Of a stretch of 64,000 nt of DNA, positions 28,423-57,013 are shown in pieces. Every line of letters begins with the position of its first letter. The stretch's first letter is position 1. Below the pieces are notes generated by a model. That model had not been told where the DNA came from, did not search any database, and was given only the letters and a program-made list of their open reading frames with translations. Both the position numbers and the translations under genes were made by a program. This DNA comes from Daphnia carinata (taxonomy: Eukaryota): contig NC_081332.1 of assembly GCF_022539665.2 (NCBI RefSeq), positions 2,604,001 through 2,668,000 on the forward strand. Direction: 5' to 3'.

Positions 28423-31400
28423 CTATAAAGGCAGGAGTTTGGTAAAGTCGATTCCTGGCAAATTCGCACAAGGGACCGGTTTGTTTAGGAAGCTGAAAGA
28501 TGAACGAATACATCCAGATGAAGCAATCGAGGAGTCATAAGAAAGAAAAAGAGAAAGAAAGAATAAATAGAAGTCTCTTTAGAGGGTAGCAGCACCGACT
28601 AAGATTAAGGAACTAAAAATGAATCGATTGATGTGAAAAGAAGGCCTTCTATGCCAAGGAAGAGCATTAATGAGTCAATAAAGAAAGAAGAAAAAAGACT
28701 ATGAACGTACTTGTCTGGAATCCGGAAGGCTTTCGGCTGTATGTCGGTGATGGTACCATCGCTATTATCGCAAATAATTTTGGCAAGGGATACTTTTTGA
28801 ATTTCGGCAAATTGACCTAAACAGATACGTATAATTAGAATTGGCATGAAAAGGCCGGAGGTAATTGTAATCCACGACACTTCCTAATATTGTCAATGGC
28901 AAACTGAAAAACTTACTTCTGCTCAAGTAAAGGCTGCTACCAATGTTCCAAGTGTAGAAGAAACGATCGGCTCGTTTCAAGTTCACAAACTGCATTGCAA
29001 AAAGGCTGGCAAAAGTTGGTCCAAGTACAGCATTCGGTAAAGGTTTTTCACTGACACCACCAACGAATAAATCAATGTCACGAGCATGAGCGTACACGTT
29101 TTTCATTGCAGAAACCACCTGCACATTGGTATAAAACACTTTGGATGTTATAAATAGATACAGTAAACATAAAGACAAAAACAACAAGACTCACCTCCAG
29201 GGGAATTCGGGGTACAAGTTGGTCAAATGTGAACGGAAAAGACGATTGTAAGTAACTGCCTGTTATATAGTTTATCATCTGGGTGTAAGTGAACAAGCCG
29301 TGGTCTCTTCCACGTTGAATATTCAACGAAATCAAATCAAGTCCCAGTCTTTGGCCGGCTGGTCTAAGTTTTTGCCCCGTCATGAAACGTAAGTTTAGTA
29401 CAACACCATAAAGAAAGTAGCCGTATCTGAAACAACAAGTTACTTGAAAAGCTGGCTGGTAATGTCATCGGCGAAACAGTTGTCAACTGCCTGAGCAGGA
29501 GTCTGGATCAGGCCACGTAGAGCATTGTCGAAAAAAGTACGACTCAGAACTCTTTGGGGTTCATTAAATGAATCTGACAGTAAATAGCTTTGATCGTCGT
29601 CTCTTCTTCCATCACTCTGGAACAACCTATTTGGAAAAGAGAATGCTGTGGGAACGGACAGGAATTCCATTTCAGCAGGGATGGTTTTACCTGACAAAAC
29701 TCCTCAACTGAGAATGGCCCATGCGGAAAGCGGCTGTTGAAAATTCAGTGAAAATGGCAGGGTTCACGTAGGAGTTGTAGTAATACTCTGGTGAATTCAC
29801 CTGGGCAGCCAATTCCGGACCTGTAAGAGAAGTACATAGAGCAGAGTATAGAAACGATGGCTGCCACAAGTCTTGTTCGAATCATACCAATCATAACAGG
29901 CAAATATTCGTTGTAAATAATGTGTTGCATTTCCGCAATCACCAAACGCCTGGCTTGCTGATAGTAGAATTCAGACGATTGACCAGGAGCCACTCGATAC
30001 AGAGCATCCGCAATACGATTGTGCTCACGAACCCAAATCGTGTGCATGACAGTTAGCAAAGGCTGTTCGTTGACTCTGTCATCACCTGTTTGAAAATGGT
30101 ATCATGACACTAAATTGAAGTCATCCACGGGAGAGAAAAACAGGGCTGACCTGCATCGAAGCATGTCGAAGTACAAACGTTGGGCCAAACAGCCCCAGCA
30201 CCTCCAGGACAACAATTAGGACCAGGTGGCAAAAATTGGCGACCATTGATGACGCTCACTTTTAATTTGCCATTAGGTGACGATGAATCTCGCAGGGCTG
30301 CCGCATGAGTTGCAGAACTGCCATAGACATTTGAACCATCAATCCAGTGCGTTAGGGCGTTAACCTGGGTAACAAGGTATGTTTACATGTTTGTTTTCTT
30401 CCAAGGACATCTGATTAATAGCAATCAAAACTTATAACGAGATGCTGCTCCCAAAAGTGCCTGGTTTAAAAGTATTTGCATGAGGAATGAACTTACGTGT
30501 TGTCGTTGTTGTGGTACGTTGCCGTTAAGATCTTTGCCGTACGTAGAGCGAACAAAATTCATACACGTCACGCTAGGTGAACTGGGATCTGGATTGTATT
30601 TCATATCGTTGGTAGGAACCATGATCGGTGCACACTCAAGATGAGGAGGGGGTGACACGACGCTGCCTGTCTGTGCTCGTGAACAACACTCGAAAGCAGA
30701 TCCATCGCCTAGGTTTGTGCAAGACAAGTTTTGTGATTTCAAATGTGCAGTGACAAAGTTACTTTTATATTCTTAATACGTACTCTTGGTAAAGGTCGGC
30801 GTAAGAGTGAGGTCGTGATCGAGAAACTGTCCCCATTGCATCGTGAGTAAAGTCACGCTGGGGTCAGGCACAGTGTCGTTGAGAACAATCGTTGTCGAGA
30901 TAAGTCGCGGGCTGGGTAGTGGTTGACCGTATACAGAAGTTCGAAATTGGCCCACATCTATGCATTCGCATCGCACAAAAGACATTAAATATTTATAGAT
31001 ATTTTCATTAGAAATTATCATATGTACTCACTGTCTGCGTAATACGAGAAGCCGAATAATCGCTGAAAGATTGTGCCAGCTTGTCCGAATCTGGGTTGGT
31101 AATTGCTGTTACATGAACCGTCTATTGTGCGGAATTTGGAACTGAAGTCACACGGCGCAAGAGGAGGAAGTTCAGCCTGTCTATCTGTGACATTGGATGA
31201 CGCAGCCAATCTACTAATCGATCCAATTTTCCCTGCCGGAATTCCCAATCTATTTAAGGAAGACGTCGTTATGAAATTAATGAAAATTAGTTTTTTTTAA
31301 TAGGCTAAGAAAACTGGAAAATGAACTGACTGGTCACTCAAGTATTGTCGGGCCACGTAATCAACAGCGGCTTCTTTAGATTGAGCCATAGCGGAGGGAT

Positions 31401-32093
31401 TGTGTCGTACGAAAGAGAAACGTGCCGAATACTTGGCACCGGGCGACAATAAGGTACCACCATTTTTATCAGAAGTGCCTTGAAGCATGAATCGATTTTC
31501 ATCCTCTTTAGCTATACGCTGTTCCAGCTGCTTCCATTCTTCTACGTATTGTCGGCCAAATCGTACAGCCTCTTCAATTTGCGCCTTCGGAATGCTGGCT
31601 ACGATTTCGTCGGCCTCTTGTTCTTCTTTCTTGGCGGCCACGGCGAGAGCATCGAAACGTTCGATGAGGGTCGCCAAATAATTTCTGTCTAATTCTGTTC
31701 ATAACAATTGGTAATAGTGAAACATTTTTTGTCTTCCTGTCACATCTCATGTTAATTGGAATTTCTGCTAATTATTTAGAAGTCAAACTTGAGCAATTTA
31801 GTTTTTACCTTCAATATTCGCTCGCGCATCAAGTACCGGCTCCTTCACTTTGTTCGCAACCTGTTGGTAAGTCAAAAATATACTTTTTCTTTCATTTCAA
31901 TCTCGGGTGAAGTAATCCTACAATACTATGTTCACCCAAATTGTCAAATTCTTTACATTCTATGCTTATCATGGGCACTTGTGTTACCGACTTGGAGTTT
32001 GGTACTTACCGATTGGCTGGCCAAAGCATTTGCGAGCATCAGTATAATTAAAGTGTGGCATGGACAGCGGCCTGCGATAATCGTTCGAAGCAT
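28423..32093 (-). CDS. Secreted animal haem peroxidase (chorion peroxidase/peroxinectin-like), copy A
   Basis: Signal peptide [104 protein letters not shown]; ends [10 protein letters not shown]. Confidence 0.93.
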
Positions 32094-34023
32094 TTTCGCG
32101 TTTTTCGACGACGTTACTGCCTATTTCACCGTTGCAGGATATATGGCAGCTTTTGAACGATTCACTATGATTCACACAGGCCAATATATATATATCCCAC
32201 TTCCTAGCCATTTCATGCCAGTACCTAATCGAGCGGAGGAGAAGCGCACCAATTTCCAATTAAAAATGAAACAGCTGTATATACTGAGTTCGTGCTGCAC
32301 AATATTTGAATTCGAGAGACCAGATGTAATTAAACTCGATTAATTGGTTCAAATATTTGGTTATGGGGCAACGTTACTGCACCAGTTCCATTAATAAGTA
32401 AATATCTGCCAGCAGTCTATAGCACATAGGGGTATGCTTACCCGTGGGGCATTGTCCTAAGAGGACTGTGTTTTACCACCACTTAGTTACACCGTAATAC
32501 CTTTTCCATCTGTAAGCGAGAGTTCCTTTAGTCGGTCAATATTTTCTAAGTGGTTCCTATACGAGTTGAAGGTGAGGGGTCAGTCGGGTCGAATTCCATA
32601 CTTTTAGATACAACCGTTTGCAGTATGCAACAGATGCAGTGTAAACATTGACAATATTGCCAAACGCAAGTAAACTACACGTGCAGACCTAGCCTAGTGG
32701 CAACAACATTGCCCCGCATCCAAATATTTGAACCAATTAATCGAGTCCCAACAGAGAAATGGATTTGGTCTCTCGAATTCAAATATTGTGCAGCACGAAC
32801 TCAGTATATACAGCTGTGTCGTTTTTAATTGGAAATTGGTGCGCTTCTCCTCCGCTCGATTAGGTACTGGCATGAAATGGCTAGGAAGTGGGATATATAT
32901 ATATTGGCCTGTGTGAATCATAGTGAATCGTTCAAAAGCTGCCATATATCCTGCAACGGTGAAATAGGCAGTAACGTCGTCGAAAAACGCGAAAATGCTT
33001 CGAACGATTATCGCAGGCCGCTGTCCATGCCACACTTTAATTATACTGATGCTCGCAAATGCTGTGGCCAGCCAATCGGTAAGTACCAAACTCCAAGTCG
33101 GTAACACAAGTGCCCATGATAAGCATAGAATGTAAAGAATTTGACAAGTTGGGTGAACATAGTATTGTAGGATTACTTCACCCGAGATTGAAATGAAAGA
33201 AAAAGTATATTTTTGACTTACCAACAGGTTGCGAACAAAGTGAAGGAGCCGGTACTTGATGCGCGAGCGAATATTGAAGGTAAAACTAAATTGCTCAAGT
33301 TTGACTTCTAAATAATTAGCAGAAATTCCAATTAACATGAGGTGTGACAGGAAGACAAAAAATGTTTCACTATTACCAATTGTTATGAACAGAATTAGAC
33401 AGAAATTATTTGGCGACCCTCATCGAACGTTTCGATGCTCTCGCCGTGGCCGCCAAGAAAGAAGAACAAGAGGCCGACGAAATCGTAGCCAGCATTCCGA
33501 AGGCGCAAATTGAAGAGGCTGTACGATTTGGCCGACAATACGTAGAAGAATGGAAGCAGCTGGAACAGCGTATAGCTAAAGAGGATGAAAATCGATTCAT
33601 GCTTCAAGGCACTTCTGATAAAAATGGTGGTACCTTATTGTCGCCCGGTGCCAAGTATTCGGCACGTTTCTCTTTTGTACGACACAATCCCGCCGCTATG
33701 GCTCAATCTAAGGAAGCCGCTGTTGATTACGTGGCCCGACAATACTTGAGTGACCAGTCAGTTCATTTTCCAGTTTTCTTAGCCTATTAAAAAAAAACTA
33801 ATTTTCATTAATTTCATAACGACGTCTTCCTTAAATAGATTGGGAATTCCGGCAGGGAAAATTGGACCGATTAGTAGATTGGCTGCGTCATCTAATGTCA
33901 CAGATAGACAGGCTGCACTTCCTCCTCTTGCGCCGTGTGACTTCAGTTCCAAATTTCGCACAATAGACGGTTCATGTAACAGCAATTACCAACCCAGATT
34001 CGGACAAGCTGGCACAATCTTTC
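31065..34023. repeat. Large inverted repeat: arms ~31065-32322 and ~32765-34023, spacer ~440 bp
   Basis: Mirror-image ORFs (31297..31677 vs 33410..33790). I counted about 13 differences by eye over ~1.26 kb, introns included; weaker similarity extends to ~32380/32700. Confidence 0.97.
32893..32902 (+). promoter_or_regulatory. TATA-like box of peroxidase B (mirror copy near 32186-32195 for copy A)
   Basis: Alternating TA run ~95 bp upstream of each ATG, inside both palindrome arms. Confidence 0.45.
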
Positions 34024-41767: not shown

Positions 41768-44234
41768 TTAGCCATTAATCGAAGACTGGGGTGGATTTCT
41801 CCGGTCGACCAAGCAAGATTGCATTGCTATGTCTTCTAACGTAGGCTGACCAAAAAATTGGTTGATTTCTTCCAATGTTTTACCTCTAGTTTCTGGCAAA
41901 CAAAATGCAACAAACAAAACAGCTGTCAGGCAACAAGCTGCATAGAGACCGTAAACACTGCCTAGCCCCATAGTCGCTGCCATATCAGGAAAAGTTCGTA
42001 CTACTATGAATGTGCAGCTTAGACCGAATGATGCAGATATTGTACCCAATCGATGACGGTATTCCAGTGGAAACAGTTCGCCCATTATTAGCTGAGGTAC
42101 AGCGCCGAAACCGATAGAGTATGCAATGATGAAAGACATAAGGCAAAGTAAAGGGAGCCAGCCCAATTCCGAGATCGCAAACGACCCTGATGAGTTACTT
42201 TCGTCGACGACATTTAACTCTTCCCAGGCGTTTTTCAGATAAACAAAGGTACTTAATCCAATGAGTGAAATTGCCATAAAAGTTCCCGAAATCATCAGTA
42301 ACAATCGACGTCCAGATCGGTCCACCTAAAAACAAAATTTACATGGACAAATATGACGTGAGGAACAAAAGCTTCGGCAAACCTTTGGCTAACTTACCAG
42401 TAATGCTGAGATCATTGTGAAAACTAATTGCACAATGCCAATCATAATGCTGGACATAAATCGGTCCACGCTACTACCAGCCTCCTGAAAAATGCTGGCC
42501 GAGTAAAAGACAACGGCGTTAATGCCACTAAATTGTTGGAAGAACATTAGCGCCATTGAGATGAACAGCGGCTTCATCAAATGGCTGCTTGTCAGTATTT
42601 TGGCGTAGCTCACGTCTGACATTTGTGAGTTATCATTGGTTTTCATGCGTTGCAATTCCGGTTCAACGTCAGTATATCTGAAATTTGTCGTACATACCAA
42701 AATAAAATTAGGAAATAAATAAAAAAGGAAATTAGATTGGAAGAATCCGATGGACTCAATCTAAGTGGACGACCGACTTTCCACGTAGTTTCTGAAGCGC
42801 GACCTCGGCCTGTGGTTCCTGGTTGTGGGCAAGAAGCCAGGAGGGTGTCTCCGGCATGAAAAACTTTCAATCAAGCAGGGAAAGAAATCACAGGTCACCA
42901 TTGATTACATGTTAGAATATATGAGATTTATGTCTTATGAGGGAAACTGAAAACACTTTGAAAGGTAATGGTAAATTTTACCATGGCTAGACCCAAGACG
43001 ATTGGCAGTGATCCGATTAGGAAACAGAGAGTTTGCCACTCGACAAAGGCTCCAACGATGTAGGCGATCACTATGCCCAATGAAAGAAATGTGGCCGTAA
43101 AAGAACCCAGAGCTCCTCTTATCCTCGGAGAGGAGCATTCGCTCACCTGTAATAAGTCAGTGGATAAAGAACCATTGTATCAAAGTTGGGAAAAAGCATA
43201 AACTGGGGACTTTACATAAATCTGCGAAGTAGGTGATGAGGCTCCAGTTAACAAGCCAGTGATAATACGACCAACGAAAAGAAGCGATGTCGATTTCAGG
43301 TAATAGGACAATCCCATAAGGTAAAATCCCATTATGTACGGTATTGAGATGGTGGCAAGTGTCATCCGACGACCATATAATTCCATAGGAAATGCAATCA
43401 GCAGGCTTCCAAAAATCGCGCATAGCGGTGGTAATGAAGCTGTTGAGAAACAAAAGACAAATATGAATATTGAAGACAATGATTGCTAAATGCCTGAATA
43501 TAGGATATTTAGAATGTTTAGATTTAGGGTACACTGGAGTTCCAATGTTTGTCATTACTTATCCAAGCGGCTTCTTCTTGTTCGAGGTACAATGTTTCAT
43601 TATTTTGTACCGTCAGTTGAGGGATAGCTGACGAGCTCCTATCACCACGTTAAAGGCAAACAAGTTTGTAAAAGAAAATAAGATAAGATAAAATAAATCA
43701 AATTCTAAATGCTTTAGTTTACCATCCGCGAACGAGACCTGTACAAAGCATGGCCCACGATGCTGATATCGCACAAACAATCTGAATTTCAAAGACAATA
43801 CAAGAGGAAAACAATTACATACAAAAGACAGAAAATTCCAGCTACTTTCTACATTTTCCCCCCATTTATTAAATCGTAGATTTCTTTGCCTTTCAGACTT
43901 TCTCGAATTATTGTTCACCCCTTTGTGCCTCTCGCCCACCACAATGAAAATATTTCAATTATTTACTTAGAATTTAGCACTCTGTCTCTTCAAGCGGGGA
44001 ACATTCACGTGTAGAGCTAATTTGCCTAGGGAAGAGGAAGCACTGAAAAAAACAAGCTTATCTAAAATCTATTAGAACTTAAACATCAGGGTGCCTAGCG
44101 CGGAAATATGGTGTAATAGATAGAGGGGATAAAAAACAAATTTAAGACACGGCTTACTGTTTTGACGCGTAACTTACTTGAGGAGCCACTTTTTGCCAAT
44201 TCTTGAATGGCGGTAAATTCTTACGGGTCTTCAT
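41768..44234 (-). CDS. Facilitated trehalose transporter Tret1-like (MFS sugar porter), copy 1
   Basis: GLVRGWSSSAIPQL, YGRR, YVSECSSPRIRGALG, MPETPSWL, FQQFSGINAV, DRSGRR, GFGAVPQLIMGELFP, LPETRGKTLEEI. Confidence 0.92.
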
Positions 44235-46126: not shown

Positions 46127-48621
46127 CTAATTTGGTTGGGTAGGCACATTACTTTTTGGCATTGGCTTACTAAGAAGGGCATGAGGATCCCCTTTGGGTT
46201 TAATTAGAATGAACGGGCAAGAAGTTATTTCTTTGGCTGTTGCCTGACCAAAGAATTGGCTGATTTCTTCCAATGTTTTACCTTTAGTTTCTGGTAGAAA
46301 AAATGCAACAAATACGACAGCCATCAGACAACAAGCTGCATAAAGACCGTAAACACCACCTAGCCCCATGGTGGCGGCCATCTCAGGAAAAGCTCGTACT
46401 ACTATGAAAGTGCAGCACAGACTGAACGATGCAGAGATGGTACCCAATCGATGACGGTATTCCAGCGGAAATAGTTCGCCCATTATTAACTGAGGTACAG
46501 CGCCGAAACCGATAGAGTATGCAATGATGAAAGACATGAGGCACAGCAAAGGGAGCCAGCCCAATTCCTCAAATACAGATGACTCTGCCACGGTGCTTTC
46601 GTCGACAATAGATAACTCTTCCCAGGCGCTTTTCAGATAAAGAAAGGCACTCAATCCACTTAGCGAGACTGCCATACAAACTCCGGAGATTATCAGTAAT
46701 ATACGACGTCCAATACGGTCCACCTACGGAAAATAAGACGAAAAATCTTAAGTTTTAGTGGTGCCACAGAAAAGATGGTAACGGCAAGACCTACCAAAAA
46801 AACAGACATCATCGTGAAAACCATTTGCACAACACCGATTACTATGCTGGCTGAAAAACGATCCAAGGTACTGCCTGCTTCCTGGAAAACGCTTGCAGAG
46901 TAAAAGACAATGGCGTTTATACCACTGAATTGTTGGAAGAACATGAGCGCTAATGAAATCAGTAGTGGCTTTATTAAATGGCCGCTGGTCAGTATTTTGG
47001 AATAGCTGGCATTGGGTAATTGCGAGTCGACATTGGTTTTGATGCGCTGGAATTCCGACTCGATATTTGTATACCTGAAAACAACATCAGGGATTGAAAA
47101 TGAGAATCATTTAAGGTTAAGTGGTAATATGTTCAGATGGTTCATTTACGTTATGTAAGCAAAAAGGAACGTCAACGTAAGTAAAGGACTTACTTGCCAC
47201 GAAGTTGCTGAAGTGCGTCCTTGGCCTGAGATTCACGATTATGAGAAACGAGCCAGGAAGGTGTTTCCGGCATCATAAGCTATGACAGGTGTTGAAACAA
47301 ATAGAACAAGGTCAAAAAAAGATGAGCATGAATACAAACTAAAGGCTTATCGCATCCGCTGTCAATGCAACATAACACTTCAACGGCCAAATTATGTTTG
47401 GTTTACCATTGCTAGGCCCAAGACAATTGGCAGGGATCCAATGACGAAACACATAATTTGCCATTCGACAAGCGCTCCGACAATGTAGGCGATTAAGATA
47501 CCAAACGAAATAAAAGTCGATGTAAAGGAGCCCAAGGCTCCTCGCACCCTTGGCGAAGAGCATTCGCTCACCTATAATTAACAAATAAACGCTTGTTTAT
47601 CTCTTATGAAGGAAACGCAGATTTAGTGAAATTCAGTTACGTAAATCTGAGATGTGGGTGATGATGCTCCGGTTATCAAGCCAGTGATGACACGACCAAC
47701 GAAGAGAACTGCGGCCGAATGGAGGTAATAAGATAATCCCATAAGGTAAAACCCAAGGACGTAAGGTATTGAGAGGCTGGCCAATGTCATCCGACGACCA
47801 TATAATTCCATAGGAAATGCAATCAGCAAGCTCCCAAAAATGGCGCACAGTGGTGGCAATGATGCTACGAAAAATTTCCAGATTTTTTTCAATTAAAATA
47901 ATATGAAATAATCAAAGAGGGGAATTATATATCAATACTTAGCCAAGCAGCCTCATTTTGTTCGAGATACAGCGTTTCATTATTTGGTGACGTCAGCTGC
48001 GGGATAGCTGATGAACTCCTGTAATTGCGTTACACCAACAAACACCAGTTTGTAAATGAACACGACAAAAAGTGAAACAATGAAAGTAGAAAGTTGTATT
48101 GTTATAAATTACCATCCGCGAACGAGTCCGGTACTTAACATGGCCCATGAAGCTGATGTCGCACAAATAATCTGAATCACGAAAGGGATAAAAGAAGAGA
48201 AAACGTCACCGTTTATGGACATAAGGTCAATAACTTTGTACTTTCTTTCCATTGAAAACGAATTCTCCACGTTTTCAGACCCACGTTTCTTTTCTCTTTT
48301 CATTTTTTCTCGGGTTTCCGAACACACCCCACGTTTTCATCGCATTTTAAATAGGGCCGGTTGCCCAATTCAACCGATAAAGGATCTAAAGCAACTACTG
48401 TTCGACAGGATATTTAGTTTAGTTATTGTCGCACTTTCTATGCGTAATGCTTCTATTGAAAACCAACATAGATTTCACAGAAGAATAGCTAATTTTGGGA
48501 AACACGGCTAAATTTGTCTATTGCTTATTGGATTAAAAATACCGAAAATTCTTACCTGTGGAGCTACTTTCGGCCAGTTCTTGAATGGTGGTATGTTTTT
48601 CCTAGTTTTCGTGGTAGCCAT
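46127..48621 (-). CDS. Facilitated trehalose transporter Tret1-like (MFS sugar porter), copy 2
   Basis: Same motifs and exon structure as copy 1; starts MATTKTRKNIPPFKNWPKVAPQ; LPETKGKTLEEI. Confidence 0.92.
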
Positions 48622-49818: not shown

Positions 49819-50406
49819 ATGGCGACTGACTCTCACTCAAATTTGTTATCTCACAACACAAACCTTGTCGATGACTTTGAAGAAGCATTCCAGGTAAACT
49901 CTTTTTCAGTAGATTAGAAAAAAGCCTGTAGCTTTGTAATAAGTCAATTCAACGTAGGGTATCATCAGCGGTTTCACCAAGGAAGATGGCTTATCGCACA
50001 CTCAGGATAATAAAGAAGAATTACGTACAGATGCCGAACAGAACGTTGCGAAGTTCATTGAAGTAGCCAAGCAACTGGAAACATTTTTCCTTCAAAGGCG
50101 CATGCAGATATCTGTTCTGAAACCAGAACAGCTTGTCAAAGAGGTATAATCAACTGTCACCATTTTGCCAAATTATGCTGAATCAAGCTTATCCGTTGGC
50201 AGGATTGCACAGAACTCAAACAGGAGTTGGCCAGGAAAGATGAACTTATCAAAAAGCATCATGAAAAAATTTCAATATGGTTAAATATGTTGGGTGAGCC
50301 ACAACCGGGACCTGTGGCTGCTAGTGCAACTCCCATCCTCAGTGAAGGAGCACCTGCTCCTCAACAGCAGCAACCTGGCAATACAATGCCATTTCAACAT
50401 AGATAG
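49819..50406 (+). CDS. MED28: Mediator of RNA polymerase II transcription subunit 28
   Basis: Three exons missed by the ORF track: NLVDDFEEAFQ|..KFIEVAKQLETFFLQRR..KPEQLVKE|DCTELKQELARKDELIKKH..W. Confidence 0.9.
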
Positions 50407-50467
50407 CATTACAAGCTGTAAAGAAAAATTCTCATGTTTATTTCCTGAATGCTGTACTGAAGTGAAT

Positions 50468-53400
50468 TTAAAACATCTTTTGGAAATCCTCGCTCTGACT
50501 AATGCGGCTTAGAACTTCAATTAACGTACGCGTCGGTCTTCCTGTCATTCCTAAAGGATCCAATAGATTTATTTTTCTTGTCAAGAAATAAATATTCTTT
50601 TTCCCAATTCATACCTTTAGCCAAGTAAGGCACATCAGAGCCGTCGACAACTCCCACCAACACCTGCGATATCAAGATGCATCCAGTGAGGTGCATCAGT
50701 GAATTCCTGTTCGGCCGAAAATAAATGTACGTTTTTCATATAAATTCACGGAAAAAGTAATGAATCGAGAGAGTTACCTTAAGGAAAGCTGCGGCACTGC
50801 ATGAACCTCCAGCTCCAGTTTTGCCGACGTTATTTAAATCCGCGAGCTGTGATTCTAGTGTTATAATGAAAACCTTCAGCCTCTTCGACGATTAGCTTTA
50901 CCCATGAAATTGAAGAAAGTTTTACCTAGTGCGGCTTGAAAGTGCTTCCACAAAGGCATTCGCCATACCCTATCGCCTGTGATGAAAGCAGACTGATGAA
51001 CCAGGTGCCATAAGGCGTTAGAGTTGGTGAAAACTCCAGCTGCTGAGCTGCCAAGAGCAACATTGATTGCACCTAAACATGCCAACAAAAGAAATAGATC
51101 TTGTCAATAAAAGGATGTAACGTATACCAACGGCACCTGTCAGCGTGGCAACATCCAATACGAGATTGGGCTGATACTGTTGAGCATACGCGAGGGCATC
51201 GGCCAGAATAAGTCGACCTTCTGCATCCGTATTATCGATTTGGATCGTTTTGCCATTCATGGCTTTCACGACATCGCCAGGTTTGATGGCCTTGCCACCC
51301 GGCATATTTTCAGTCAATGGAATTAACCCTATACATTTTGAATTTCAAGGTACTGTTAAACAACTGATAAACTAATTCGTAATGATATGGCGGACCTTTG
51401 ATGTACAGAGGTAGATTGAGCTTAGCAGCTGTCAAAATTGTGGCAAGGGTGCAGGCAGCCCCACCCATATCTCCACGCATTTTATCCATGTTGGCTGCTG
51501 GTTTGATGCTAATACCACCTGTATCGAAGGTGACTCCTTTGCCTGCCGAAATTAAAGAGAAGGTTGACTGATGAGACTTTGAAGTAATGATGTAATTACC
51601 AACAATGACGATCGGCTTCTCTTTGCCTGGCAAATTATTGTAGGTGATTTCGAGAAAGACAGGTGGCTCTCTGGAACCTTGGGCGACAGCTAAAAAAGAA
51701 TTCATTCCTTGATTGGAAGCCCATGCTTCATCGTGAGCTTCTACATTAATTGCTACTCCGTTGCCTCCTGCACGACTAAGCAAATCGACTGCATGACGGG
51801 CAAAAATGGTAGGTGTCATATGATTCGATGGCATTTCCATCAACCATCTGGCTAAATTCTGCCCAGCAGCTTTTGTCAAACCAGTCTCCCACTTGGCTTC
51901 TCTTTAGTAAAAATAATAAATAGAAACAATTCTCAACGAAACAAAGTTATGGAATCTAACCCGATTTCATCACTGCCGTGCAAAATTACTTCAATATCGG
52001 GTTTGCGTTTAGCGGCGCCTTTCAAATCTTGAAACTGCCAGCGAGTCAGCGAGGCACTTTCGGCGGCGCACTCGGCGTCACCACACGGATCAACGGACAC
52101 AACATCCACGCCAACATCACGCAGAGCTTTTAAACCAGCTGCAGACATTAATTCAATGATTACACGAAAATCCAAGAAAATATAAATAAATAAAGCAAAT
52201 GCCTGCAATGCCGCATCTTAGATTTTCTCTGGCCGTATCTCTTTCTTCCAAAACATTATCTTTTTGAAAAATAGCTGCATGGTTTGAAGGATTCGGGCCC
52301 AAATTGACGACGGCTACAGCTGGAAATTCACGATCGAGTCCGTACAGCACTCTGGCTTTGCCCTTCTTTGGCACTCCGCTCCTGCATCGGGATGGAACAG
52401 AGGAAAAGGATAAGGAAATCAAAGTTGGTGAATACAAAAAAAAAAATTTAACATCTAATGAGTCACAAGAAAAAAGTCAGAACTGTATTGTAACATGAAA
52501 ATGCTTGATCAATAGGAGGCACAATACGGGAATCACTTTTTGGCAGAACACATACACAAGTCACAGCTCACTATGTAAAATGGACAAATGAAAACAAGTC
52601 GTGGCGATCGATCGATGACGGAATTTCACGAAAAAAAAATTGATCCTAAACCAGTTCGAGAATCTTGATCGTTCCCTGGCTGTTGGCAGCGACAATGACA
52701 TTCGAGTCGGGTTTCCAGCACACGGCCGAAACAAACTCAGCACTTTCCTCTTGTTCGGCGCGTTCTTTATCGACCAGTAAAGCACTTTTAACCACGTCGA
52801 AACGATAGTGAAGTAAAGGCTGGCTCAAACCCTTTGAGTAAAGATAAAGGGCATTGTTTTCCGAACCGCAAGCAATTAAATCACGTCGATCGTCTTTGCT
52901 GCCGTCCGTTGTTGACAGGCCAACAAAATTCTTCTCATTCGTATGTCCGCGGAATGAACGATATGAGACGTTGTCGTCCACTGACCACAGTTTCAGTTGG
53001 CTGTCCGTGCTGGCCGACACCAGTTCTCGGTCGCTGAGGAACTTGACATACGACACGGCCTTGCGGTGGCCTTTAAACACCCGAAGCGGTTCCTTGGGTT
53101 GCCGCAAATCCACGTAGTGGACGCAATGATCCGCCGCGCCGTACGCCAGGCAGTAGCGCGAGTAAGGATTGAATTTGACGCAGCAAACGTTGGCTTTAGC
53201 CTCCAAAGTCGCCACTGAATGTTCCGCATTGAGACTCCAGATCTTGACCCGAGAATCGTCGCTGCCGCTGGCCATCAGGTGACTGTCCATCCGATTGAAA
53301 TCGACGCTCCAGCATCGTTTCTCGTGCTCTTGAAAGACGCGAAGGCGAGTGCCGACGGAAGCGTCCCAGACCGAGACGCTGCCTTCGTAGTCGGAGCTGC

Positions 53401-54956
53401 ACAGCACCGACTTGTGGTAAGCGCTCCACGAGATGCACGAGATCTTGGAGCCGGCCACCATTTCCATGACCGGGTAATGAAGGTCGACGGCGTCGCGGAC
53501 GACCACCGCGTAGTCGTAGACTTTGATTCGCTTCGTCACGCCGGCAATGGCGAAAAAGTCCGCGTCTCGATCGAATTCGATCGAACTGACGATGTGCGCC
53601 GTGTTGAGCAGTTCGCTTCCGTAGCTCAGATTCGCTAGAGGCCTCAGTTTGCTCCATCGTGTGAGTTGATTCAAATTAGATTGGAAATCAAGTAAACTTT
53701 CCCTTTCCTCGCCATCCCCACCGAAACTGTTATTCCGCAAAGCCCAATATTTCTCTTCCAAATCTTCAAAATGTTGGTGCATTCGCACTCGACGCTGAGC
53801 GATGCTTAATGGGGTAGGAGTGAGAGTGGAATTGAAAGCTGTTTCGTTAAATTGCATTTTCTCTTCATTATTTTCTTCCTTCTCTTTTGCCAACTCCTTG
53901 CCTGGATACAGGGTTTGCGCCGTTTGCAAGTCCTTGTCAAGTACTTCTAGCTCTTGCTGGACATTCCTCAACTCATTGTTTTTTTTTGCTTTGAGTTGTT
54001 CCAGGAATTCACCAAGTAGTTTCGCCTCAGTCAACTTTCGTTCAGCATCAACGTCGCATTGCTTACGCAGCAGAACTTCTTGCATACGAACGAGTTCTGA
54101 CGGGTGCCATTCCCGTTTGTCTAACAACGTAGTGAAATCTTTCAACACAAGGTTTCCATCTTGACTACCGGCGACTCTCTTCTTCTCTTTGGCTATTAAG
54201 GCATTCAGAGTTACGTTGGGGAAAACGGATGGATTGCGACCACTGTTGTCGAGCGGCCCACCACATTTAGGACACTTGCTGGCTAACTCCAGGCTTCTGA
54301 TGATGCATCCGTGACAAAAGCTGTGGCCGCACGTCGTCACGTACGGTTCCGACATCATATCCAAGCAGATAGGGCAGAGAAGATCACTGTCTCTGTCCTC
54401 GTAGGTGTCCTTCACTCCCCCATAGAGCAGCGACTGGGGACCCCTCTTTACCCCTCTGGCTGCCATCTCTCTTCCGTCTGTCACATTCACAGCTGATCTG
54501 ACCTGAAACACATCACAAACAAGTCAGCCACTCTGATTGTTGTCACCAGAAAAAAGAATTTCAGGTCAGATTAGCTCGATTGCACGACTAAAGATGACAT
54601 TCCAGATTATTCTTAAACACTGAATCTGCTTACCAGTTCAACGCATCGTTTAGGCGATTGGCCACTTGATCGTTGAAACTTTTGGCCGCCTCCGTCCAAA
54701 TGAAATCTTTCGTGGAACCAACGTCGTTTTCGGTGTTCGTTGAAGAATAGCCTCCCAATATGAGGCCTTTACCTTTCTAATGACAGGGCAAGTATACATG
54801 CATTATTAATTTAGAACATTCAGTGCTGAAACTTTACTAGTTATTCACCTTGAGATCTGTGGCCTGAGAGGAGAATGATGGGAAAGCGACCTTGGAAAAC
54901 CTATTACAAAACAGTAATCGACGGCAAAAGTTGATTTGCGTGCGGACTGTCGCCAT
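50468..54956 (-). CDS. LAP3: Cytosol/leucyl aminopeptidase (M17) with mitochondrial-type presequence
   Basis: [55 protein letters not shown]; exon 1 at 54849-54956, exon 2 at 54634-54776, then a 2.25-kb intron to exon 3 starting 52381. Confidence 0.95.
52646..54466 (-). CDS. COP1: E3 ubiquitin ligase COP1 (RING-coiled coil-WD40), intronless, nested in LAP3 intron 2
   Basis: [86 protein letters not shown]; uninterrupted 606 codons from ATG 54466. Confidence 0.97.
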   Translation of the reverse strand: MAARGVKRGPQSLLYGGVKDTYEDRDSDLLCPICLDMMSEPYVTTCGHSFCHGCIIRSLELASKCPKCGGPLDNSGRNPSVFPNVTLNALIAKEKKRVAGSQDGNLVLKDFTTLLDKREWHPSELVRMQEVLLRKQCDVDAERKLTEAKLLGEFLEQLKAKKNNELRNVQQELEVLDKDLQTAQTLYPGKELAKEKEENNEEKMQFNETAFNSTLTPTPLSIAQRRVRMHQHFEDLEEKYWALRNNSFGGDGEERESLLDFQSNLNQLTRWSKLRPLANLSYGSELLNTAHIVSSIEFDRDADFFAIAGVTKRIKVYDYAVVVRDAVDLHYPVMEMVAGSKISCISWSAYHKSVLCSSDYEGSVSVWDASVGTRLRVFQEHEKRCWSVDFNRMDSHLMASGSDDSRVKIWSLNAEHSVATLEAKANVCCVKFNPYSRYCLAYGAADHCVHYVDLRQPKEPLRVFKGHRKAVSYVKFLSDRELVSASTDSQLKLWSVDDNVSYRSFRGHTNEKNFVGLSTTDGSKDDRRDLIACGSENNALYLYSKGLSQPLLHYRFDVVKSALLVDKERAEQEESAEFVSAVCWKPDSNVIVAANSQGTIKILELV

Positions 54957-55521
54957 ATTGGAATTTGTTTAAAAGACTGAAACCAATTCTCCTGTCACGC
55001 ACAACCAATTTATTTTGGATTACTAGATAACTTCCGTGAATTTCTTTTTTCAGGATTGTATTTTAATGAAATAATTTTCAAAGTGTGGTTCTACACTTTG
55101 GTCAAGTTATGGTAAATGAAAATTGCGCTCGTTTTACCAAAGGCAACGTTGTCGGCAGTGAAGAGACATTTTACATGGCCGTCTGGTAAAATATTCTCCA
55201 ATATTGTTATGATAGCGTAATTACGTTAAGAACAGTTTGTTTCTACGAAGGTAGCAGCCTTAAGCGTAATATGAACTAGTCCTTCGAACTTCCTTTAATT
55301 TTTTGAAACTAATTATTTTTCACTGGATTCCGCACTTCCAATAGAATTGGGTCCAGTTTTGTACTGTTATTAATTTTTTTATTTATTTTGCATTTCATTT
55401 TATGTTTATTTCGTCTTAGATAATTAGTGGTGACAGCATTTTCCCGCCTATTATAGATGTATTTTTTTTTTGCAGTGTTTAACCTTGGTCTCCAAAAAAT
55501 TCAATTGAATTGAATTGAAAG

Positions 55522-57013
55522 ATGGTCTTCTTCAGCAGCTGCCGAGTATCTTCACCGAAATTGTGTGGGAGTGTTATATTTGTTGCAAAGAAACAACAGC
55601 AATGTGTCATCACCATTGCAAACCGCTGTATAACCAGCAAAGCTATGAGAGAAGGATTGCCTCCTGTTAACAAACCTCCCCCATTTCCATATAAGGAGAA
55701 ACGATATAACTTTTTTCGTGCTTTGTTTGATCCTACCACTAGCCGATTAGATGAAAATTCCAAACTGATTGTTGTTGAAGGTCCACCTTCAGCTGGGAAA
55801 GGTGTTCTGGCAAAAGAATTGGCTGATGATTTGGGCATGGCCTATTTTCCATCACCCACAGTAGCTGAAACCTACATTAATGATTATGGATATGATTTAC
55901 GACAATTGGACGACCAATTACCAGAGTCTTGTAAAAGCTATGATGAGAATGATTTTCTCAAGGATCCACTGCGACTAAATGGCTCCAAAGCTGCTCGTTT
56001 CCAGTTGACGAAGTTCGGCCTTCGTTACAAACGCTATTTGGAAGCCCTTGCCCATATTTTGAATACAGGGCAAGGAGTTGTCATGGATCGTTCTCCGTAC
56101 AGTGATTTGGTTTACATCACTGCTATGGCTGAAGTAGGCATCGTCAGCAAAAATGGTAAAAAAATTTGTGCATTCCATTTTAACCGACGAATAACGAAAG
56201 ATAATTTACTCCGCGTTTTATACAGTGTACAACTATTATCATAGTGTCAGAAACAATGCACTATTCGCCCTTTGGCGCCCTCATTTGGTCATCTATCTAG
56301 ACGTACCTGTTACCGAAACTAAACGCAAAATTGAGGCGAGGAATAGACCGTACGAAAAGGATTCAAAAATGGCCACTCCGGAATACCTCCAGAGCTTGGT
56401 CGATTCCTACAAAAAAGACTTCTTGAAGGATATAAGGTATACCTGTCATTCAGTTTGTGGGTACTCCAACTTCCTATTTGGCCTTAAAAACATTTTTGTT
56501 GTTGAAACAGCACACATGCCGAAGTTTTAGTTTACGATTGGACGAAGCCAGCAGATACGGAAATCGTTGTTGAGGACATTGAACGTGTAAATTTCGACCA
56601 GTATGGTATATATGATGCAAAGATGAAGGACTGGAGGTGCTACGATAAGTGGGACTGGAACAATAATCGTCAAGTGTAAGTTTACATATTGATGATTCTC
56701 CCATTCGACCCATAACAACATGGATGTGTTTTGTTTTTTCAATATCAGTTTTACCCACTCTCAGAACTATCTTCTCGCTCACCTGAACGTACCACCAGTT
56801 AACTGTCCTGAGGTTGCCATTACTGGCACAGATAACAAAATCCGCGACGTTGTCATGGAAGAGGTAATGTGTTAATTAAAGATTGGTTTGCAAACTTGAT
56901 AAATAATTAAATCACTAACCTTTTTCAATCCCCTTTAGGCACCGGGCAACAAATACGCCAAGGGATTCAACGCCGAAATGGGAGACAAGGGGTTGTTGTT
57001 TAAATTGTCTTAA
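55522..57013 (+). CDS. NDUFA10: NADH dehydrogenase 1 alpha subcomplex subunit 10 (42 kDa, dNK-fold)
   Basis: Presequence, DPTTSRLDENSKLIVVEGPPSAGK, ALAHILNTGQGVVMDRSPYSD, PHLVIYLDVPV, APGNKYAKGFNAEMGD. Confidence 0.95.

What the first reader, a model, noticed from the sequence alone, without database searches (positions are those of the whole stretch)
52382..54956. Intronless COP1 nested on the same strand inside LAP3 intron 2, apparently sharing the LAP3 promoter, with two possible splice outcomes
Seen: the whole COP1 CDS (52646-54466) lies in LAP3 intron 2 (52382-54633), same strand. It is preceded by a good acceptor (TGTGTTTCAG|G, exon start 54502) only ~130 bp after the LAP3 exon-2 donor, leaving little room for its own promoter. 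Exon 1 (phase 0) spliced to 54502 gives an in-frame fusion of the Arg-rich LAP3 presequence to COP1 (..[23 protein letters not shown]). Exon 2 (phase 2) spliced to 54502 gives a uORF stopping at 54487, 20 nt before the COP1 ATG. Known: nested genes are usually antisense, and vertebrate COP1 has many introns. Inference: a retroposed COP1 became an alternative terminal exon, making peptidase and E3 ligase mutually exclusive products of one pre-mRNA, possibly with a mitochondria-targeted COP1.
Basis: partly seen in the sequence, partly recalled or inferred. Interest (0 to 1): 0.88.

Follow-up and report, generated by a model that had tools for sequence, protein, structure and literature searches.

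The report
Ancient ubiquitin ligase inside peptidase gene
In this water flea, and in insects and other arthropods too, the gene for the ubiquitin ligase COP1 sits inside an intron of the peptidase gene LAP3, is spliced onto LAP3's second exon in close relatives, and has a splice site predicted to be masked by a conserved RNA hairpin that likely sets how much of each protein is made.

Summary
Observation confirmed. An intact, intronless 606-codon COP1 (54466-52646) lies in LAP3 intron 2 on the same strand. The window is most likely Daphnia carinata.

RNA contigs of relatives show the exon 2-to-COP1 joint in 3 of 4 runs and the LAP3 exon 2-to-3 joint in 4 of 4. No exon 1-to-COP1 joint appears. 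The acceptor-to-ATG offset fits that fusion in only 2 of 6 lineages, so a mitochondrial COP1 fusion is unsupported.

The arrangement is not Daphnia-specific. It recurs in ant, termite-like and other arthropod loci, and in RefSeq records that number COP1 and LAP3 as isoforms of one gene; a tick has the two on different contigs. In all six genomic lineages the LAP3 frame stops within 8 codons of the COP1 acceptor, so LAP3's N-terminus becomes a long upstream ORF.

New here: an intronic arm pairs with the COP1 acceptor in all six lineages, with two-sided changes (5 of 6 beat shuffles, against 2 of 18 control acceptors). It likely damps a proximal splice site that would otherwise dominate.

Closest known: Su(var)3-9/eIF2gamma, but without a shared protein N-terminus. 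No paper was found. The hairpin's function and the translation route are inferred.

The parts
54849..54956 (-). LAP3 exon 1 coding part (36 codons; 6 R/K and 1 D/E, presequence-like by composition only); strong start context (A at -3, G at +4); likely shared with COP1 mRNA
   Evidence: exon 1-2 joint in X3, X7, X11
54634..54776 (-). LAP3 exon 2, shared exon; its phase-2 donor splices either to 54502 (COP1) or to 52381 (LAP3)
   Evidence: joints skipping 131 and 2252 nt
54503..54633 (-). Short alternative intron (131 nt) removed in COP1 mRNA
   Evidence: joint with CT..AC ends in X1, X3, X7
54559..54576 (-). 5' arm of the predicted hairpin; contains two branch-point-like CTRAY motifs
   Evidence: (18 nt, 94% complementary; listed first among the 20 inverted repeats of the intron)
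54491..54508 (-). 3' arm of the hairpin: the COP1 acceptor AG (54504-54503) plus the first 12 exon bases
   Evidence: predicted pairing probability of the AG 1.0
54467..54502 (-). COP1 leader (36 nt): last five codons and stop (54489-54487) of the LAP3-derived 88-codon upstream ORF, a start-stop ATG-TGA at 54486, then the spacer to the COP1 ATG
52646..54466 (-). COP1 (RFWD2) coding sequence, 606 aa, intronless
52460..52645 (-). COP1 3' UTR; candidate poly(A) signal AATACA near 52489 (inferred)
   Evidence: motif kept in L001; the X7 contig ends at 52471, but the X3 contig runs on into LAP3 exon 3
52203..52381 (-). LAP3 exon 3 (distal acceptor), followed by a GC-AG intron
50470..52138 (-). LAP3 exons 4-11 (M17 peptidase catalytic domain); one-base frameshift near 50655 in this assembly

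Best explanation
COP1 lies in LAP3 intron 2 and is spliced onto LAP3 exon 2 as an alternative last exon in close relatives, the layout recurs across insects and crustaceans, and a conserved hairpin predicted to cover the COP1 splice acceptor likely damps its use so that one promoter yields both mRNAs, with COP1 likely translated by ribosomes that restart after, or scan past, the stranded LAP3 N-terminal reading frame. Shown: the nesting; both splice joints (in relatives); the recurrence in distant arthropods; the early stop of the LAP3 frame in every lineage examined; complementarity of an intronic arm to the acceptor. Inferred: (1) the proximal acceptor (131 nt from the donor, against 2252 nt, in a gene whose other introns are 55-72 nt) would win without the hairpin; (2) COP1 mRNAs begin at the LAP3 promoter and carry the LAP3 start codon; (3) they mostly end near 52470; (4) translation is by reinitiation or leaky scanning and is inefficient, a second damper on COP1 dose; (5) the origin was one retroposition in a pancrustacean ancestor.
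For: Splicing: exon 2-to-COP1 joint in X1, X3, X7 (three studies); exon 2-to-3 joint in 4 of 4 runs; exon 1-2 contigs unbranched in 3 runs. Recurrence: LAP3 exon 2 lies upstream of COP1 in 10 genomic loci (L003, L010, L024, L012, L013, L016, L017, L018, L023, L041); downstream LAP3 exons in L001, L010, L024, L023. One contig: L020 carries the LAP3 start and 75 codons identical to the N-terminus of full LAP3 P0182, then a stop, 166 nt and the whole COP1. Early stop: within 1-8 codons of the acceptor in 6 of 6 lineages. Database records: COP1 X1 and LAP3 X2 with adjacent accessions in D. pulex, D. pulicaria, Agrilus, Neodiprion lecontei, N. virginianus and N. fabricii; adjacent accessions in Anabrus; same contig in D. 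magna and Macrosteles; adjacent locus tags in Abscondita; gene models joining both in Trachymyrmex, Ooceraea and the crab Portunus. Hairpin: positions -7 to 0 paired in 6 of 6 lineages, A-U to G-C at -6 in L023, duplex better than 95% of shuffles in 5 of 6 lineages against 2 of 18 control acceptors (Fisher p 0.003). Precedent: a stem masking a proximal acceptor balances splicing in Drosophila Atrophin (PMC2724269, passages).
Against: No RNA from the window's own species. Only assembled contigs of relatives, which cannot show transcript starts, ends or levels and can join paths from different molecules. X11 shows no COP1 at all. The hairpin was found after looking; its 3' side is partly the splice consensus; folding z-scores are weak in the five termite-like loci (-0.6 to +0.8), and two of them (L012, L013) prefer another fold; L041 is not significant in the duplex test (108 of 500); one control acceptor (52138) scores as well (1 of 200). 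An 88-codon upstream ORF in a strong context is long for ordinary reinitiation (PMC10275272, passages: typical uORFs 10-30 codons), and the stop-to-ATG gap varies from 1 to 237 nt, with five extra ATGs in the ant. Pancrustacean LAP3 N-termini are no poorer in Met than those of other animals (14/1797 against 17/1913), so there is no sign of selection for leaky scanning. Some animal COP1 loci are not nested (L038, L021; second copy in Athalia).
Confidence: 0.66

Rival explanations
1. Same splice, but COP1 mRNAs start at a second start site downstream of the LAP3 ATG (late exon 1, intron 1 or exon 2), so exon 2 is only 5' UTR and there is no long upstream ORF to get past.
For: It removes the translation problem of an 88-codon ORF in strong context. 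RefSeq lists two transcripts for one COP1 protein in D. magna, Athalia and Neodiprion, so UTR variants exist. Contigs cannot show starts.
Against: No branch into exon 2 from intron 1 in X3, X7 or X11. L020 holds the LAP3 start and COP1 on one contig, though a contig is not one molecule.
Confidence: 0.18
2. The shared-exon layout is real, but the complementarity at the acceptor is not a splice damper (chance, or a structure with another role).
For: Found after looking; weak in the termite-like loci and L041; one control acceptor scores similarly.
Against: Present in the same register in six lineages whose introns otherwise align poorly (46% mean column identity); two-sided changes; 14-21 bp helices in the window, L023 and L041 (11, 0 and 3 of 2000 shuffles reach them).
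Confidence: 0.12
3. One reading: exon 1 splices to the COP1 acceptor and gives a presequence-COP1 protein sent to mitochondria.
For: In frame in the window, in the termite-like loci (75-nt leader) and, by upstream translation, in P0012 and P0142.
Against: No joint in 4 runs and an unbroken exon 1-2 contig in 3. Out of frame in L003, L010, L023 and L041 and, by upstream translation, in the close relative P0138. Of 284 COP1-like proteins only 4 carry a LAP3 N-terminus (P0133, P0319, P0321, P0428), all through exon 2; P0319 and P0321 run LAP3-COP1-LAP3 and look like prediction artefacts.
Confidence: 0.03
4. COP1 is an independent nested gene with its own promoter inside intron 2.
For: In insects the intron part upstream of COP1 is 0.5-1.1 kb, which leaves room for a promoter; the ant leader has five ATGs.
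Against: In Daphnia relatives the COP1 contigs begin with exon 2 sequence spliced across the 131-nt intron.
Confidence: 0.03

Closest known systems
Su(var)3-9/eIF2gamma fusion locus of insects (PMC1435931, passages; PMC4528330 section 8)
   Same: An unrelated conserved gene sits as one large exon in a conserved intron of a housekeeping gene; common promoter; 3' alternative splicing gives either product; retroposition proposed; later re-separation in some lineages.
   Different: There both proteins share about 80 N-terminal residues in frame. Here the shared coding exons end in a stop just inside the COP1 exon and COP1 has its own ATG. That fusion is limited to dicondylian insects; this one includes branchiopods and, by gene models, a crab. 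No acceptor hairpin appeared in the passages read.
Cholinergic locus (VAChT/unc-17 with ChAT/cha-1; PMC4769160, passages)
   Same: Two genes in one operon-like unit. Recalled, not read: VAChT lies in the first ChAT intron and inverted repeats steer the splice (Mathews 2015, seen only as a title in a reference list).
   Different: Functionally linked partners and, as recalled, a non-coding shared exon. LAP3 and COP1 have no known shared pathway, and the shared exons code for LAP3.
Stem-controlled alternative acceptors in Drosophila Atrophin and Nmnat (PMC2724269, passages)
   Same: A conserved stem masks or loops out a stronger proximal acceptor and balances it against a distal one; in Nmnat the proximal choice is a terminal exon with its own poly(A) site.
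   Different: Those choose between isoforms of one protein within Drosophila. Here the choice is between two unrelated proteins and spans crustaceans and insects. Here it is predicted, not tested.
Dicistronic mRNAs and shared-exon gene pairs catalogued by FlyBase (PMC4528330, passages and section 8)
   Same: Shared promoters and 5' exons (130 genes) and shared N-terminal coding exons (10 pairs and a triplet) are known.
   Different: A case where one gene's coding exons serve as a truncated upstream ORF of the other is not among the categories in the section read. Drosophila has no COP1 ortholog (PMC7923445 and PMC13648414, passages), so this locus cannot be in that catalogue.

Membership tests
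COP1/RFWD2 E3 ligase | N-terminal C3HC4 RING, central helical region, C-terminal WD40 propeller with full-length similarity to COP1 | tested here: met
   Pfam zf-C3HC4 31-68 and WD40; E 6.6e-183 over residues 11-606 to human COP1 in the PDB; 98% to a cluster representative and in a cluster named D. magna COP1
COP1/RFWD2 E3 ligase | Ubiquitin ligase activity and VP-motif substrate binding | not testable with these tools
   inferred from sequence only
LAP3 / M17 cytosol aminopeptidase | Peptidase_M17 catalytic domain with M17 N-terminal domain | tested here: met
   PF00883 in exon 5; best hit P0163, D. carinata cytosol aminopeptidase with PF00883 and PF02789
Su(var)3-9/eIF2gamma-type fused locus | Guest gene inside a conserved intron of the host, same strand | tested here: met
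   the phase-2 intron after LAP3 exon 2 in the window and in the 9 genomic loci analysed
Su(var)3-9/eIF2gamma-type fused locus | Alternative 3' splicing from a shared exon | tested here: met
   both joints from the exon 2 donor in RNA contigs of relatives
Su(var)3-9/eIF2gamma-type fused locus | Common promoter (same 5' ends) | tested here: inconclusive
   unbranched exon 1-2 contigs and L020; no CAGE or long reads
Su(var)3-9/eIF2gamma-type fused locus | Shared in-frame N-terminus in both proteins | tested here: not met
   the LAP3 frame stops 1-8 codons into the COP1 exon in 6 of 6 lineages and at once in L020
Retrogene | Loss of ancestral introns | tested here: inconclusive
   positions shared by outgroup loci (L075 with L031; L043, L048 with L075) are absent from nested copies, and L041's three introns match none; few outgroups, and intronless non-nested COP1 exists (L025-L027)
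Retrogene | Poly(A) remnant or target-site duplication | tested here: inconclusive
   none evident by eye in the printed 3' flank; not expected after so long
Acceptor-masking RNA stem | Conserved complementarity covering the AG, with two-sided changes | tested here: met
   weaker in the termite-like loci and L041
Acceptor-masking RNA stem | Disruption shifts splicing; compensatory mutation restores it | not testable with these tools
   needs minigenes
Known Rfam RNA family | Covariance-model match | tested here: not met
   0 matches at E<=1 in 50000-56000

The most novel reading that the evidence does not exclude
Since the base of Pancrustacea, COP1 has lacked its own promoter in most lineages and is dosed by a two-step damper built into the LAP3 gene: a hairpin that hides the COP1 splice acceptor and can be opened by a signal (helicase, editing, temperature or polymerase speed), and coupled termination-reinitiation after a 60-90-codon LAP3 fragment that may itself be a mitochondria-bound micropeptide. 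That would be a cellular, half-billion-year-old switch between a peptidase and a major E3 ligase, invisible in Drosophila because flies lost COP1.
Probability: 0.25. Interest if true: 0.85.

Novelty: new variant of a known kind. Interest (0 to 1): 0.66.

Why it matters
COP1 is a conserved E3 ligase that Drosophila lacks, so how it is expressed in other arthropods has had no model. The locus gives a second deep case, beside Su(var)3-9/eIF2gamma, of two unrelated conserved genes locked into one transcription unit. It differs by turning host coding exons into an upstream ORF and by a predicted acceptor-masking hairpin kept across crustaceans and insects. It offers a natural test of long-lived splice-controlling RNA structure and of translation after a long upstream ORF in a cellular mRNA. 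In practice, RNAi, knockouts or expression counts aimed at LAP3 exons 1-2 in Daphnia, beetles, bees or shrimp would also hit COP1, and databases merge or fuse the two genes.

Tried and rejected
1. Exon 1-to-COP1 fusion: no joint, frame not kept.
2. In-frame exon 2-to-COP1 fusion through other AGs in the window: by hand from the AG list, the in-frame ones (exon starts 54530, 54497, 54470) stop at once or within two codons.
3. Selection against ATG/Met in LAP3 exons 1-2, as leaky scanning would predict: no difference from other animals.
4. A hairpin over the candidate poly(A) signal (arms 52471-52491 and 52521-52541): folds worse than shuffles (z +1.56).
5. Long-range pairing across the COP1 exon, as recalled for the nematode cholinergic locus: nothing consistent among the five inverted repeats shown per region for the window, L010 and L023; the rest were not shown.
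6. A weak LAP3-like hit in L032 (E 0.011) is not LAP3 on inspection.
7. Rfam: none. Earlier scan notes: none.
8. A 151-residue WD40 tree was too poorly resolved to name L003, L023, L041 or L020; it put the cladocerans with other long branches.
9. No whole genome was held, so COP1 copy number outside the window is untested; one copy in the window.
10. Only 4 of the 24 listed runs were laid; their contig depths (COP1 joint 31-48, LAP3 joint 44-108) cannot rank isoform levels.
11. Literature: five searches listed no paper on a COP1-LAP3 locus, judged by titles and abstract openings; subscription journals and supplements were not covered.
Full report
What is there. On the minus strand the window holds an 11-exon leucine aminopeptidase gene, LAP3. 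Nine of its introns are 55-72 nt; intron 2 is 2252 nt and contains an unbroken 606-codon ORF (54466-52646) with RING and WD40 domains that matches solved human COP1 end to end (E 6.6e-183). The best LAP3 hit is a Daphnia carinata record whose contig length equals that of the window's own COP1 record (7,871,635), so the window is most likely D. carinata. An acceptor lies 131 nt after the exon 2 donor and 36 nt before the COP1 ATG.

Which splice is used. No run of the window's species was found (best word share 0.09 among 24 listed). I laid 4 of the 24 runs, all assembled contigs of relatives, at 80% likeness. The joint that removes 54633-54503 is present in X1, X3 and X7 (three studies). The joint that removes the whole 2252-nt intron is present in all four. 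Exon 1 to exon 2 is joined in X3, X7 and X11 on contigs that do not break at the exon 1 donor, and no exon 1-to-COP1 joint is listed. X11 shows no COP1 contig. The X7 COP1 contig ends at 52471, just after an AATACA that is also kept in L001; the X3 contig runs on into LAP3 exon 3, so read-through or unspliced RNA also exists. Contigs drop rare variants and cannot show starts, ends or levels.

How widespread. A metagenome scan with COP1 kept the best 80 of 186 confirmed stretches. A LAP3 profile built from 41 homologues found LAP3 sequence on the same strand in 12 of the 80: exon 2 upstream of COP1 in L003, L010, L024, L012, L013, L016, L017, L018, L023 and L041; downstream exons in L001, L010, L024 and L023; and a spliced leader in L020. 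L010 is an ant (98% to Trachymyrmex COP1). L012-L018 are termite- or cockroach-like (L012 is 90% to Periplaneta). L003, L023, L041 and L020 could not be named. Most of the other 68 loci are short, partial or distant (30-50% identity); several with long flanks show no LAP3 (L021, L025-L027, L029, L031, L033, L038, L043, L075), and L038 and L021 fall near arthropod-like sequences in the tree, so exceptions exist. Database records agree with the nesting: RefSeq numbers COP1 as isoform X1 and LAP3 as X2 with adjacent accessions in D. pulex, D. pulicaria, Agrilus and three Neodiprion species, gives adjacent accessions in Anabrus, and the same contig in D. magna and Macrosteles. Abscondita has adjacent locus tags. 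Predicted proteins join both genes in two ants and the crab Portunus. In the tick Ornithodoros the two lie on different contigs, and Athalia has a second COP1 on another contig. The simplest reading is one insertion in a pancrustacean ancestor (an age of about 500 million years is recalled, not computed), with later re-separations.

What the COP1 mRNA looks like. In the window and in the nine genomic loci analysed, which make six lineages with the window (L024 was left out as a near-copy of L010), exon 2 ends in phase 2 and the LAP3 frame stops 1-8 codons into the COP1 exon. The gap from stop to COP1 ATG is 20, 19, 237, 53, 1 and 12 nt. Leader length modulo 3 is 0, 2, 1, 0, 2, 1, so the in-frame exon 1 fusion of the window is no more frequent than chance, and the close relative P0138 is out of frame by its upstream translation. 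L020 shows the layout on one contig: a start codon and 75 codons identical to the N-terminus of full LAP3 P0182, a stop at the junction, 166 nt, then all of COP1. So LAP3's N-terminus is left as a long upstream ORF (88 codons in the window). How ribosomes reach COP1 is not shown. The LAP3 start is in strong context, typical upstream ORFs that allow restart are 10-30 codons (PMC10275272, passages), and I found no extra Met depletion. Short gaps in four lineages fit reinitiation; the ant does not fit well. A second start site downstream of the LAP3 ATG remains the main rival.

The hairpin. The first-listed inverted repeat in the window's intron 2 pairs 54559-54576 with 54491-54508, which is the COP1 acceptor itself (18 nt, 94%; region z -2.76). 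Each of the six lineages has a matching arm 62-175 nt upstream of the acceptor, pairing positions -7 to 0 in all six, with A-U replaced by G-C at -6 in L023 and G-U pairs in L041. Duplex energy beat 95% of dinucleotide shuffles in 5 of 6 lineages (0, 5, 6, 7-19 and 0 of 500; L041 108 of 500) against 2 of 18 other LAP3 acceptors (Fisher p 0.003). Of 166 TTCAG sites in the window, 2 reach a 14-bp helix, the COP1 acceptor being one. Limits: the feature was found after looking; the 3' side is partly splice consensus; whole-region folding is unremarkable in the termite-like loci and two of them prefer another fold; the lineages are related. The logic is that a proximal acceptor 131 nt from the donor should dominate in a short-intron gene, and masking it lets LAP3 be made. 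A stem does this in Drosophila Atrophin (PMC2724269, passages). Its function here is untested. There is no Rfam match.

Origin. Intron positions shared among outgroup loci are missing from the nested copies, and the three introns of nested L041 match none of them. This fits retroposition with later intron gain, but the sample is small and intronless COP1 also occurs away from LAP3.

Comparison and novelty. It works like Su(var)3-9/eIF2gamma (PMC1435931, passages; PMC4528330, passages and section 8) but fails one defining feature, the shared in-frame N-terminus. It also recalls the cholinergic locus (PMC4769160, passages; the nematode splicing paper was seen only as a reference title, and its content is recalled). 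Automated annotation already merges the two genes, but five paper searches listed nothing describing the locus, its spread or the hairpin; subscription journals and supplements were not covered. Drosophila lacks COP1 (PMC7923445 and PMC13648414, passages), which may explain the gap. Earlier scan notes held nothing. Verdict: real, conserved, a new variant of a known kind; interest 0.66.

Noticed in passing
window 50640-50670 (-): One-base frameshift in LAP3 exon 10 relative to D. magna LAP3; NCBI's own model is flagged LOW QUALITY PROTEIN. Likely an assembly error.
   Followed up: partly
window 52139-52202 (-): LAP3 intron 3 is a GC-AG intron, supported by joints in 4 of 4 RNA runs of relatives.
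   Followed up: yes
window 55110-56530 (+): A deoxynucleoside-kinase-fold gene (Pfam dNK; the name NDUFA10 is recalled) lies head-to-head with LAP3/COP1. The X7 contig merges both 5' ends and implies a 5' UTR intron at 55186-55475: a likely bidirectional promoter.
   Followed up: partly
L004:8-31, L005:9-32, L007:9-32, L008:3-26: An identical 24-nt motif starts four transcript-like COP1 contigs whose proteins are only 67-79% alike; in three a stop codon lies just before it, matching the L020 junction. It could be the exon arm of the hairpin or a reinitiation element; unexplained.
   Followed up: partly
L038:2920-7300; L021:222-4625: COP1 genes not nested in LAP3: L038 has two introns and is followed by an unnamed ORF and a sulfatase-modifying-factor gene; L021 is followed by a diacylglycerol kinase. 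Candidates for re-separation or second copies.
   Followed up: partly
P0354 and P0375 (Athalia rosae): Two COP1 proteins on different contigs in a sawfly; which one is nested was not tested directly.
   Followed up: no
L023:452-687: A 58-nt, 97% inverted repeat in the intron upstream of COP1, like a small mobile element.
   Followed up: no
window 31297-33790: Two near-identical ORF pairs about 2 kb apart on both strands: a tandem duplication or assembly artefact amid ORFs that look peroxidase-like (label recalled, not tested).
   Followed up: no
window 41768-42325 and 46127-46723 (-): Two similar sugar-transporter ORFs in tandem (Pfam Sugar_tr for the second).
   Followed up: no
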